Of a stretch of DNA of 64,000 nucleotides, positions 59,481 through 60,257 are shown piece by piece. Under the pieces are notes generated by a model. That model was given only the letters and a program-made list of their open reading frames with translations, searched no databases and was not told the origin of the DNA. Source of the stretch: Escherichia phage inny; the sequence record MN850601.1; one strand, given 5' to 3'. The number at the start of each line of letters is the position of its first letter. Positions within the stretch are counted from its first letter, which is position 1. The position numbers were made by a program, and so were the translations under genes.

Positions 59481-59963
59481 ATGGAACAACAAAAAGATAA
59501 TACTATTGCAAAATTTGCTCGTCCAGAAGTAATGGTTGAAATTGATCTGGATGAAGGACGCAGTGTAAAATTTAGAGTTCTCAAGTGGAGTCCAACTAAA
59601 GTTTTTGAAAGGATTCCAGAACTAGGTAGTGTACTGGCTGTTCCTATGACAATGTATAATACTGCTCTTATGTCAGCAGACGAAGATCTAGAAGCTCGTA
59701 TTGCTATGGCGCTGATCCAGTTATTCAGTGGTCTGGAAGAAAAAAACTTAGCCGCATTCTTACGTAAAATTTTAGATGAAGTTTACACAGAAGCAGGACA
59801 CAGTGTTTCCGATAATTTTGATGAATTGTTTTTTGCTCACCCAGAATTAGTTGTTGACTTAGCTGCAAAAGTTCTTGAGGTGAACTATGCCCCTTTTTTC
59901 AAACGAGGTTTCGGAAAACTGTTGACCCAATTTCAAGGAATAGAGACTCTAGCGAAGAGTTAA
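59481..59963 (+). CDS. tail assembly chaperone (G-like, 0-frame product)
   Basis: 160 aa acidic protein immediately upstream of tape measure; contains slippery heptamer near its 3' end. Confidence 0.5.
   Translation: MEQQKDNTIAKFARPEVMVEIDLDEGRSVKFRVLKWSPTKVFERIPELGSVLAVPMTMYNTALMSADEDLEARIAMALIQLFSGLEEKNLAAFLRKILDEVYTEAGHSVSDNFDELFFAHPELVVDLAAKVLEVNYAPFFKRGFGKLLTQFQGIETLAKS
59894..59900 (+). other. candidate -1 programmed ribosomal frameshift site T_TTT_TTC giving chaperone fusion (59481-59899 + 59900-60238)
   Basis: X_XXY_YYZ heptamer in 0 frame; -1 frame open from 59879 to 60238 with no start codon until TTG at 60011. Confidence 0.45.
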
Positions 59964-60257
59964 GTCCGGCAATTAAATCAGCAATTGAAATTGCCTCACA
60001 AACCCTTAGCTTGACATGGTATGAAGTAATTCTTTGTAAGGTAATTAAGAATACCTCCGAAACCTTGTCCTCGTTAGATAATTATGGTGTAGATTATCTA
60101 CTTAAAATTTATGAATATTTAACATTTGAAGACTATGTACAAGATCTTCACGTTAAAGATGCGGATATTAAACGTGGTCAACAGAGAACAATAAGAGAAC
60201 TGGATACGGCTATGAAAAAATTAATTCCAGATTCATAAGTAATACGGAGGATTACCC

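What the first reader, a model, noticed from the sequence alone, without database searches (positions are those of the whole stretch)
59481..60238. Probable -1 programmed frameshift producing a G/GT-type tail assembly chaperone fusion
Upstream of the tape measure gene, the 160-aa ORF contains T_TTT_TTC (59894-59900) in the X_XXY_YYZ register 21 codons before its stop. The -1 frame is open from 59879 to 60238 and has no start codon until a TTG at 60011, which suggests the downstream ORF (track 60011-60238) is reached by slippage, giving a fusion of about 251 aa. This matches the conserved tail-chaperone frameshift of tailed phages.
Basis: partly seen in the sequence, partly recalled or inferred. 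Interest (0 to 1): 0.5.

Follow-up and report, generated by a model that had tools for sequence, protein, structure and literature searches.

The report
Unannotated tail-chaperone −1 frameshift, phi92-like phage
This phi92-like E. coli phage almost certainly makes a long and a short form of its tail assembly chaperone by letting ribosomes slip back one base on a TTTTTTC sequence. This is a well-known phage trick that public annotations of this phage group have simply missed.

Summary
The window is a phi92-like myophage (99.3% identical to phi92 over 58900-60400). The 160-aa ORF 59481-59963 is phi92 gp132, a Pfam Phage_TAC_15 tail assembly chaperone. It lies between the tube gene (gp131) and the tape measure gene (gp134).

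T_TTT_TTC (59894-59900) is in X_XXY_YYZ register. The -1 frame is open from 59879 to 60238, and its first start codon is an SD-less TTG at 60011. The fusion would be 252 aa.

One genome alone is weak evidence: about 0.13 in-register heptamers are expected by chance in the overlap. Comparison settles it.
- All 54 loci examined (Stephanstirmvirinae and Vequintavirinae, down to about 25-30% identity) keep xxT TTT TTC and a 101-127-codon -1 extension.
- Other invariant Phe codons in the same gene vary freely between TTT and TTC.
- The "intergenic" stretch before the TTG evolves as coding sequence in the -1 frame.
- In-frame start codons are not conserved.

I found no 3' stimulatory structure. An SD-like GAGGT lies 12 nt upstream, but it is not universal.

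Verdict: an ordinary G/GT-type programmed -1 frameshift. It is unannotated in all 15 GenBank records I inspected and has been predicted for sister clades. It is a new member of a known kind and of low interest. The fusion protein itself has not been demonstrated.

The parts
58958..59437 (+). Tail tube gene (phi92 gp131). It is the upstream neighbour that defines the tube / chaperone / tape-measure gene order.
   Evidence: Pfam KPP10_Orf10; phrog_280. Cryo-EM assignment of gp131 as the tube protein: PMC13450770.
59441..59460 (+). Terminator-like hairpin plus T-run between the tube gene and the chaperone gene. It probably attenuates transcription into the chaperone and tape-measure genes (inferred).
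   Evidence: Relatives annotate a terminator at the same position.
59481..59963 (+). G-type tail assembly chaperone ORF (160 aa, equal to phi92 gp132), the zero-frame product.
   Evidence: Pfam PF21822 Phage_TAC_15, E=1.6e-22. phrog_3840 tail assembly chaperone, E=4e-54. RefSeq annotation.
59877..59882 (+). SD-like GAGGTG. Its GAGGU core ends 12 nt upstream of the heptamer. Possible dnaX-type 5' stimulator; unproven and not universal.
   Evidence: Sequence. An SD core of at least 4 nt is present at this spot in 25 of 33 unique contexts, and the Glu codon here is GAG although the phage uses GAA:GAG 260:47.
59891..59900 (+). Slippery stretch C_CCT_TTT_TTC. It contains the conserved heptamer T_TTT_TTC (59894-59900) and, in phi92-like phages only, an overlapping C_CCT_TTT.
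   Evidence: Invariant in 54/54 loci. Codon choice frozen at TTT 40/40 and TTC 40/40, against 22:18 and 13:27 at other invariant Phe positions.
59900..59965 (+). First part of the -1 frame extension: Q-T-R-F-R-K (the RFR codons are 59906-59914), then a poorly conserved linker. This part overlaps the last 20 codons of G.
   Evidence: alignment. RFR is kept in the -1 frame even where the zero frame changes: F to L in rV5-like phages and G to A in Seunavirus.
59966..60238 (+). Conserved T-type C-terminal domain in the -1 frame, with its stop codon at 60236-60238. It begins 15 codons upstream of the annotated TTG start.
   Evidence: 3rd-position excess of 451/316/730 in 59966-60010. phrog_16039 matches residues 38-109 of the extension.
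60011..60238 (+). ORF annotated separately as phi92 gp133 (75 aa, TTG start). I read it as a fragment of the frameshift extension, not an independent gene.
   Evidence: the record annotates no RBS for it, unlike most of its neighbours; no SD within 18 nt upstream.
60258..62237 (+). Tape measure protein gene (phi92 gp134), the downstream neighbour and presumed client of the chaperone.
   Evidence: phrog_16051, score 1319 bits.. Cryo-EM: PMC13450770.

Best explanation
The ORFs at 59481-59963 and 59900-60238 form one recoded gene for the two forms of a tail assembly chaperone.

Most ribosomes translate the zero frame and make the 160-aa G-type chaperone. A minority slip back one base. This happens when tRNA-Phe molecules sit on UUU (P site) and UUC (A site) of U_UUU_UUC at 59894-59900. 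Equivalently, it can happen one codon earlier on C_CCU_UUU.

Those ribosomes continue in the -1 frame and make a 252-aa fusion with the junction ...VNYAPFF|QTRFRK.... The fusion consists of the G core, an RFR motif, a flexible linker and a conserved C-terminal domain of about 90 aa.

By analogy with lambda gpG/gpGT, the shared G part coats the tape measure protein gp134. The T part recruits the tube protein gp131 so that the tube polymerises around the tape measure. Neither product stays in the virion.

Shown here: the sequence layout, its conservation, the coding signature of the -1 frame and the TAC family membership. Inferred: that slippage actually occurs, its efficiency, and the binding partners.
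For: 1. Layout. The heptamer is in register. The -1 frame is open from 59879 to 60238, with no start codon before the SD-less TTG at 60011.

2. Gene order. Sheath, tube, G, T, tape measure. gp130, gp131 and gp134 were assigned by cryo-EM, and gp132/gp133 are not among the virion proteins listed (PMC13450770).

3. Family. G is Pfam Phage_TAC_15 at 80.8 bits against a cutoff of 22.

4. Conservation. 13 GenBank relatives from 9 or more lineages of two subfamilies, plus 38 IMG/VR loci, all keep xxT TTT TTC in register and a -1 extension of 101-127 codons.

5. Nucleotide-level constraint. F139 is TTT in 40/40 sequences and F140 is TTC in 40/40. Invariant F31 is 22:18 and F117 is 13:27 (Fisher p=6e-7 and 2e-11, sequences not independent). 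The codon before the run changes amino acid (CCT Pro, TGT Cys, AGT Ser) but always ends in T.

6. Coding signature. The 45 nt between the G stop and the TTG differ among 13 unique sequences mostly at the -1 frame third position (451/316/730). The annotated ORF behaves the same way (1950/1358/3228). The peptide PAIKSAIEIASQTLS is conserved, and the other two frames carry stops.

7. RFR motif. RFR, 3-5 codons after the slip, is preserved in the -1 frame by changes that alter the zero frame.

8. Start codons. The first in-frame start codons fall at different places in different phages and lack an SD. In Hena1 and KB57 they lie at residues 80/84, inside the conserved domain.

9. Slipperiness. U_UU.U_UU.C and C_CC.U_UU.U are among the motifs that shift in E. 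coli even without stimulators (PMC4066793).

10. Domain boundary. In the AlphaFold model of G, the confident region ends at residue 140, exactly at the slip site (pLDDT below 50 for residues 141-160).

11. Sister clades. A conserved -1 frameshift on a GTTTTT motif has been predicted for the chaperone gene of related clades (PMC12846349).
Against: - No experimental evidence for the fusion protein exists for phi92 or any close relative in the literature I could search.
- No 3' stimulatory structure was found. Fold z-scores run from -1.5 to +1.2, and RNAalifold predicts 0 pairs. Efficiency may therefore be low, although lambda also works at a low level.
- A single heptamer in a 28-codon overlap is expected by chance about 13% of the time in one genome.
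- Ribosomal slippage cannot be told apart from insertion of one U by RNA polymerase on sequence alone.
- The IMG/VR loci were retrieved with a peptide pattern that contains FF. That biases the amino-acid level, but not the codon level.
Confidence: 0.88

Rival explanations
1. Transcriptional slippage. RNA polymerase occasionally inserts one extra U in the U6 run, producing an mRNA in which G and T are in one frame. The protein would be identical to the ribosomal-frameshift product.
For: The site is a homopolymer run (T6). An inserted U gives exactly the same peptide...APFFQTR... (sequence). None of my sequence tests separates the two routes rigorously.
Against: - The run is only 6 long in 54/54 loci, and the seventh base is always C, never T.
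- Productive slippage in bacteria usually needs longer runs (own knowledge). Sharma et al. invoke transcriptional slippage as a possible reason why U7 and A7 are avoided.
- The run is extended on the 5' side, at the wobble of the preceding codon. That is exactly what P-site re-pairing needs.
- Both heptamers in the stretch are proven ribosomal shifters in E. coli.
Confidence: 0.05
2. Two independent genes. gp133 is translated on its own from the TTG at 60011, as GenBank annotates it, and the heptamer is irrelevant.
For: An ORF with a TTG start exists, and 11 of the 15 inspected records annotate some separate downstream ORF. TTG starts are used elsewhere in this phage, for example by the tape measure gene at 60258.
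Against: - There is no SD within 18 nt of the TTG, and the phi92 record annotates no RBS for this ORF, unlike most neighbouring genes.
- Annotated and possible starts differ in every lineage. Hena1 and KB57 have none before residue 80/84 of the extension.
- The 45 nt upstream of the TTG show a coding substitution pattern and a conserved peptide in the -1 frame.
- The RFR motif next to the slip site is conserved in the -1 frame.
- The frozen TTT TTC codons would have no explanation.
Confidence: 0.03
3. The ribosome shifts to the -1 frame at another place in the overlap. The candidate is the U_UU.C tetramer formed by GGT TTC (59909-59912), giving the junction ...KRGF|RKTV....
For: GGT TTC is nearly invariant. 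U_UU.C is the second-best single-tRNA slip motif in E. coli (PMC4066793).
Against: - rV5-like phages have GGT TTA there (poor shifter U_UU.A), yet keep T_TTT_TTC and the whole -1 ORF.
- Conservation of GGT TTC is fully explained by dual coding: RFR in the -1 frame forces G-F in the zero frame.
- Tetramers shift about 10-fold less than good heptamers.
Confidence: 0.03

Closest known systems
Phage lambda gpG / gpGT (Levin, Hendrix & Casjens 1993; Xu, Hendrix & Duda 2004, 2013, 2014; summarised in PMC5009743)
   Same: - Two overlapping ORFs sit between the major tail protein gene and the tape measure gene.
- The second ORF is in the -1 frame and has no start of its own.
- A canonical X_XXY_YYZ heptamer lies near the end of G.
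- No required 3' structure is evident.
- Neither product is expected in virions.
   Different: - The heptamer is U_UUU_UUC, not G_GGA_AAG.
- The slip is 20 codons before the G stop rather than at the very end.
- This is a contractile-tail phage.
- G belongs to a different Pfam TAC family (Phage_TAC_15).
- The T part has no detectable sequence similarity to lambda T, and I did not test this directly.
- Efficiency and binding partners are unmeasured here.
Phage P2 gpE / gpE+E' (myovirus counterpart; slippery T_TTT_TTG from my own knowledge; higher efficiency noted in PMC5009743)
   Same: - It is a myovirus with the gene order tube, chaperone pair, tape measure.
- It uses a U-rich heptamer of the same U_UUU_UUN class and a -1 shift.
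   Different: - The last base is C, not G.
- The proteins here are larger (160/252 aa).
- I did not test or find any sequence homology.
TAC-N / TAC-NC frameshift predicted for Vandenendeviridae (Pakpunavirus Adele) and Andersonviridae, with an invariant GTTTTT motif (PMC12846349)
   Same: - These clades are evolutionarily related, with syntenic tail modules.
- The downstream piece is routinely annotated as a separate hypothetical protein.
- The -1 frame is uninterrupted in all genomes.
- A conserved oligo-T motif lies near the 3' end of TAC-N. Vequintavirinae relatives of the window carry TGTTTTTTC, which contains GTTTTT.
   Different: - phi92-like phages have CCTTTTTTC, with C rather than G before the run. 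This creates a second overlapping heptamer, C_CCU_UUU.
- That paper did not analyse Stephanstirmvirinae or Vequintavirinae chaperone loci.
- Its prediction is also computational only.
E. coli dnaX tau/gamma -1 frameshift (A_AAA_AAG with a 5' SD-like element and a 3' hairpin; own knowledge, SD window as used in PMC4066793)
   Same: An SD-like GAGGU lies 12 nt upstream of the heptamer, inside the spacing range in which such elements stimulate -1 shifting.
   Different: - There is no 3' hairpin.
- The SD-like element is missing in 8 of 33 unique contexts.
- The shift here lengthens the product, whereas in dnaX it shortens it.

Membership tests
G/GT-type tail assembly chaperone pair made by programmed -1 ribosomal frameshifting | Two overlapping ORFs lie directly between the major tail (tube) gene and the tape measure gene. 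| tested here: met
   Tube 58958-59437, G 59481-59963, T to 60238, tape measure 60258-62237. gp131 and gp134 assigned by cryo-EM.
G/GT-type tail assembly chaperone pair made by programmed -1 ribosomal frameshifting | The downstream ORF is in the -1 frame and has no functional start or RBS of its own. | tested here: met
   The first start codon is a TTG at 60011 with no SD, and starts are not conserved. A coding signature lies upstream of the TTG.
G/GT-type tail assembly chaperone pair made by programmed -1 ribosomal frameshifting | A canonical slippery heptamer X_XXY_YYZ lies in zero-frame register within the overlap. | tested here: met
   T_TTT_TTC at 59894-59900, plus C_CCT_TTT at 59891-59897. 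Both motifs are known shifters in E. coli.
G/GT-type tail assembly chaperone pair made by programmed -1 ribosomal frameshifting | The slip site and the two-frame layout are conserved across divergent relatives. | tested here: met
   54/54 loci and 33 unique contexts, down to about 25-30% protein identity. Codon choice is frozen only at the site.
G/GT-type tail assembly chaperone pair made by programmed -1 ribosomal frameshifting | The upstream product belongs to a tail assembly chaperone protein family or fold. | tested here: met
G/GT-type tail assembly chaperone pair made by programmed -1 ribosomal frameshifting | The fusion protein is actually produced, at a fixed low ratio to the short form. 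| not testable with these tools
   No proteomic or reporter data were found for phi92-like or rV5-like phages.
G/GT-type tail assembly chaperone pair made by programmed -1 ribosomal frameshifting | Both products are needed for tail assembly and are absent from mature virions. G binds the tape measure and T binds the tube protein. | not testable with these tools
   Only indirect evidence: the phi92 cryo-EM study lists virion proteins and names neither gp132 nor gp133.
dnaX-type stimulated -1 frameshift | A stable 3' stem-loop or pseudoknot lies 5-9 nt after the heptamer. | tested here: not met
   Folds are no more stable than shuffles (z from -1.5 to +1.2). There is no consensus pair in 11 relatives.
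dnaX-type stimulated -1 frameshift | An SD-like element lies about 6-17 nt 5' of the heptamer. | tested here: inconclusive
   GAGGTG is at 59877-59882. An SD core of at least 4 nt is present in 25/33 unique contexts and absent in 8. GAG is used here although GAA is preferred 260:47.
Recoding by transcriptional slippage | A long homopolymer run, typically 7-9 or more (own knowledge). | tested here: not met
   The run is exactly T6 followed by C in 54/54 loci.
GTTTTT-motif TAC-N/TAC-NC frameshift of Vandenendeviridae and Andersonviridae (PMC12846349) | An invariant GTTTTT lies near the 3' end of TAC-N, and the -1 frame is uninterrupted up to the tape measure gene. | tested here: inconclusive
   The -1 frame is uninterrupted (met). 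The window has CCTTTTTT, so the literal G is absent. Vequintavirinae relatives have TGTTTTTTC. I did not test homology of G to the Pakpunavirus chaperone.

The most novel reading that the evidence does not exclude
The shift may be tuned by linear elements and tRNAs rather than by a 3' RNA structure. The candidates are:
- an SD-like GAGGU 12 nt upstream, held in place by use of the otherwise disfavoured GAG codon;
- the tandem C_CCU_UUU_UUC double slip site that is specific to phi92-like phages;
- possibly the phage's own adjacent tRNA-Pro(UGG) and tRNA-Phe(GAA) genes, which read exactly these codons.

That would make this a dnaX-like, 5'-stimulated tail-chaperone frameshift whose efficiency the phage itself modulates.
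Probability: 0.15. Interest if true: 0.35.

Novelty: new member of a known kind. Interest (0 to 1): 0.2.

Why it matters
The value is mainly for annotation. In phi92-like phages (Justusliebigvirus), Phapecoctavirus and Vequintavirinae, many of which are phage-therapy candidates, the downstream piece is either filed as a separate "hypothetical protein" or not annotated at all. Three PHROG families of "unknown function" (phrog_16039, 10409, 8811) appear to be fragments of this chaperone extension. Recognising the frameshift corrects hundreds of records, including phi92 gp132/gp133.

It also extends the conserved U-run chaperone frameshift, predicted for Vandenendeviridae and Andersonviridae, to two further subfamilies. 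That supports an ancient, shared decoding solution in this myovirus supergroup. It does not change the understanding of frameshifting or of tail assembly.

Tried and rejected
- **3' stimulatory structure.** I folded eight segments from the window and relatives and ran RNAalifold on 11 sequences. Nothing exceeded shuffles and no consensus pair emerged.
- **Natural in-frame G-T fusions in 5.8 billion proteins.** All 45 hits were G-only proteins of about 160 aa.
- **Sequence search of the PDB with the G profile and the T part.** Nothing was significant.
- **AlphaFold of the T part alone.** Mean pLDDT was 45.9, so the model is unusable beyond "probably helical after a disordered first 22 residues".
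- **Literature searches.** I combined phi92, rV5, PVP-SE1, Vequintavirinae and Stephanstirmvirinae with "frameshift". No description of this site turned up. A 2026 Klebsiella phage proteomics paper that mentions frameshift peptides concerns T4-like phages and is irrelevant.
- **The in-register A_AAA_AAC at 59741-59747.** I rejected it because the -1 frame there is closed by several stops before 59879.
- **Other heptamers followed by a long -1 frame in the window.** These are shadow ORFs or ordinary gene overlaps.

Full report
**What the window is.** Megablast of 58900-60400 finds 55 phage records at 99% identity or more. They include Escherichia phage phi92 (99.3%, Justusliebigvirus, Stephanstirmvirinae) and vB_Eco_PATM (99.9%). 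In the phi92 RefSeq record the finding's ORFs are gp132, named "tail assembly chaperone" (160 aa), and gp133, an unnamed 75-aa ORF with a TTG start. They are flanked by the sheath gene gp130, gp131 (which RefSeq names only "virion structural protein"; its tube role comes from the cryo-EM study below) and the tape measure gene gp134. The record marks a ribosome binding site for most genes in this block but none for gp133. A 2026 cryo-EM study of phi92 assigns gp130 as sheath, gp131 as tube and gp134 as a trimeric tape measure protein. It does not list gp132 or gp133 among virion components (PMC13450770).

**Checking the observation.** Reading the sequence and translating both frames confirms every coordinate.
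- ATG is at 59481 and TAA at 59961-59963.
- TTTTTTC is at 59894-59900. 59894 is the wobble base of CCT(138), followed by TTT(139) and TTC(140), which gives the X_XXY_YYZ register.
- The -1 frame has a TGA at 59876-59878 and is then open to the TAA at 60236-60238.
- The first ATG/GTG/TTG in that frame is the TTG at 60011.
- The predicted fusion is 140 + 112 = 252 aa, with the junction ...VNYAPFF|QTRFRK....

The slippery stretch is therefore CCCCTTTTTTC, and a slip at either position gives the same protein.

**Is it more than chance?** Within one genome, barely. ORFs of at least 90 aa on the + strand carry 39 in-register XXXYYYZ heptamers in 8434 codons, so about 0.13 are expected in the 28-codon overlap. 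The other ORFs in the window where such a heptamer leads into a long open -1 frame are shadow ORFs or normal 4-nt gene overlaps. The decisive evidence is comparative.

**Comparative evidence, frame layout.** tblastn with the hypothetical fusion finds 370 phage records. In 290 of them one place covers at least 80% of the query, and in nearly all the rows shown the match comes as two pieces, that is, in two frames. I fetched 13 relatives for frame analysis:
- a Klebsiella phage of the proposed genus "Sichuanvirus", and two Phapecoctavirus phages;
- two Vequintavirus (rV5-like) phages, and Henunavirus;
- two Seunavirus phages, Certrevirus phiTE, Mydovirus and Avunavirus;
- two unclassified Vequintavirinae.

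These share 24-35% identity with the window's G protein outside Stephanstirmvirinae. In every one the -1 frame is open across the last 28-49 codons of G and runs 84-92 codons beyond its stop. The +1 frame closes within 0-23 codons. None of the 15 GenBank records inspected annotates a joined CDS. Four of them annotate no downstream ORF at all, and one carries no annotation.

**Comparative evidence, the slip site.** All 13 relatives carry T_TTT_TTC in register. So do all 38 loci retrieved from IMG/VR. Those loci were found with a peptide pattern containing FF, so only their codon-level behaviour is informative. Across 40 unique G genes:
- F139 is TTT in 40/40 and F140 is TTC in 40/40;
- the equally invariant F31 is TTT:TTC = 22:18 and F117 is 13:27;
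- neighbouring conserved residues vary synonymously, for example Y136 TAT 13 / TAC 27 and G137 GGC/GGA/GGT.

The codon before the run encodes Pro (CCT), Cys (TGT) or Ser (AGT) in different lineages, but it always ends in T. The amino acid drifts while the base needed for P-site re-pairing stays. The seventh base is always C, so the run never reaches seven.

**Evidence that the -1 frame is translated from the slip site onwards.** Aligning the -1 frame peptides shows three parts: an invariant R-F-R three to five residues after the slip, a variable Gly/Ser/Thr/Pro-rich linker, and a conserved C-terminal domain.
- In rV5-like phages a C-to-A change turns zero-frame Phe into Leu but keeps -1 frame Arg (CGG to AGG). 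In Seunavirus a G-to-C change turns zero-frame Gly into Ala but is silent in the -1 frame (CGG to CGC). The -1 frame therefore constrains sequence well upstream of any start codon.
- In the phi92/Phapecoctavirus group (13 unique sequences), the 45 nt between the G stop and the TTG (59966-60010) would be intergenic if the genes were independent. They differ mainly at the -1 frame third position (451/316/730), like the annotated ORF (1950/1358/3228). They encode a conserved peptide, PAI(K/Q/E)(S/H)AI..A..T.., and the other two frames contain stops.
- Inside the overlap, variation peaks at the zero-frame wobble position (700/479/417), as expected for a dual-coding stretch in which the G tail is the stronger constraint.
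- Candidate start codons in the -1 frame fall at different positions in each lineage. None has a plausible SD. In Hena1 and KB57 the first one is at residue 80/84 of the extension, inside the conserved domain.

**Protein identity.** G matches Pfam PF21822 Phage_TAC_15 (E=1.6e-22, 80.8 bits, cutoff 22) and phrog_3840 "tail assembly chaperone". The extension matches phrog_16039, 10409 and 8811, all labelled "unknown function"; these appear to be fragments of the extension. An AlphaFold model of G built from 24 sequences has moderate confidence (pLDDT 66.5, pTM 0.61). Its last confident helix ends at residues 139-140, and residues 141-160 fall below pLDDT 50. The slip site therefore sits at the boundary of the folded core. 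Fold searches are only weakly supportive:
- Foldseek found nothing significant.

A search of 5.8 billion proteins with the fusion returned only G-length proteins and no natural in-frame fusion.

**Stimulators.** I found no 3' structure. Eight folded segments have z-scores from -1.5 to +1.2, and RNAalifold predicts no pair across 11 relatives. Low-level tail-chaperone frameshifting is widely conserved among long-tailed phages (PMC5009743), and from my own knowledge lambda needs no 3' structure, so this absence fits.

Upstream, GAGGTG (59877-59882) offers five bases complementary to the anti-SD. Its GAGGU core ends 12 nt before the heptamer, within the 6-17 nt window used for such elements (PMC4066793). 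The Glu codon there is GAG, although the phage's structural genes use GAA:GAG 260:47. An SD core of at least 4 nt is present at that spot in 25 of 33 unique contexts but absent in 8, including phiTE, KB57 and SSBI34. It is a candidate stimulator, not an established one.

In E. coli, U_UU.U_UU.C and C_CC.U_UU.U belong to the motifs that shift above 0.1% even without stimulators. H_HH.U_UU.Y is among the most efficient classes (PMC4066793).

**Mechanism proposed.** Most ribosomes finish the 160-aa G protein. A minority slip -1 on CCU-UUU-UUC and make the 252-aa fusion. By analogy with lambda (PMC5009743), many G copies and a few GT copies coat the tape measure gp134 through the shared G core. 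The T domain recruits the tube protein gp131 to start polymerisation, and both chaperones then leave the finished tail. The sequence layout, conservation and coding signatures are shown here. The slippage itself, its efficiency and the binding partners are inferred.

**Rivals.**
- Transcriptional insertion of one U would give the same protein and cannot be excluded from sequence. The run is only six long and is never extended to seven, and both heptamers are proven ribosomal shifters.
- Independent initiation at the TTG is contradicted by the missing SD, the non-conserved starts, the coding signature upstream of the TTG and the frozen slip-site codons.
- A secondary slip on the U_UU.C tetramer at GGT TTC (59909-59912) is possible. 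However, that motif is TTA in rV5-like phages, and its conservation is explained by dual coding.

**Comparison with the known.** This is the classic tail assembly chaperone frameshift (lambda G/GT; P2 E/E+E' for myoviruses). A December 2025 paper predicted the same arrangement, with an invariant GTTTTT, for Vandenendeviridae and Andersonviridae. It noted that those clades are related to Vequintavirinae and Stephanstirmvirinae (PMC12846349). The Vequintavirinae relatives examined here carry TGTTTTTTC, which contains that motif. phi92-like phages carry CCTTTTTTC.

I found no paper describing the site in phi92, rV5, PVP-SE1 or their subfamilies. The finding is therefore a new member of a known kind and an annotation gap rather than new biology.

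**Verdict.** My confidence is about 0.88 that a -1 ribosomal frameshift at 59894-59900 yields a GT-type fusion. Interest is low (0.2).

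Noticed in passing
window 59441-59460 (+): A terminator-like hairpin (AAAGGGCAgaaaTGCCCTTT followed by ATTTTT) lies between the tail tube gene and the chaperone gene. Relatives annotate a terminator at the same spot. It probably lowers expression of the chaperone and tape measure genes relative to sheath and tube.
   Followed up: partly
window 45563-45718 (+), within the tRNA cluster 43446-46196: The phage encodes 15 tRNAs. They include adjacent tRNA-Pro(UGG) and tRNA-Phe(GAA), the tRNAs that decode the CCU-UUU-UUC slip site. This is probably coincidence, but a phage tRNA-Phe could influence slippage.
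   Followed up: no
window about 58444-58536 (equivalent to phi92 record 66790-66882): The phi92 RefSeq record annotates a "hypothetical tRNA" inside the tail sheath gene. ARAGORN finds no tRNA there in the window, so it is likely an annotation artefact.
   Followed up: partly
GenBank records MG065639, MG065645, MG065656, MG065689 (named Campylobacter phage); OK210077 (Serratia); OP562383 (Acinetobacter); OR584014 (Pseudomonas): The Campylobacter- and Serratia-named records are 99% identical to the window over this region. The Acinetobacter- and Pseudomonas-named records match at about 74%, the same level as Phapecoctavirus E. coli phages. The host names look doubtful (contaminant or mislabelled isolates).
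   Followed up: no
window 59909-59912: GGT TTC forms an in-register U_UU.C tetramer, the second-best single-tRNA -1 slip motif in E. coli. It is a possible minor second slip site. Its conservation is, however, explained by dual coding of G-F (zero frame) and R-F-R (-1 frame).
   Followed up: partly
window 59906-59914 (-1 frame): The invariant RFR motif just after the slip uses AGG and CGG. CGG does not occur in frame in any of the 16 structural genes I counted, and AGG is rare (9 uses). These rare codons are forced by the overlap, and any functional meaning is unknown.
   Followed up: no
PHROG families phrog_16039, phrog_10409, phrog_8811: These families of "unknown function" match the -1 frame extension. 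They appear to be collections of mis-called fragments of the long chaperone isoform.
   Followed up: partly
window 59741-59747: A_AAA_AAC is also in X_XXY_YYZ register inside the chaperone gene. The -1 frame there is closed by several stops before 59879, so a slip would only truncate the protein.
   Followed up: yes
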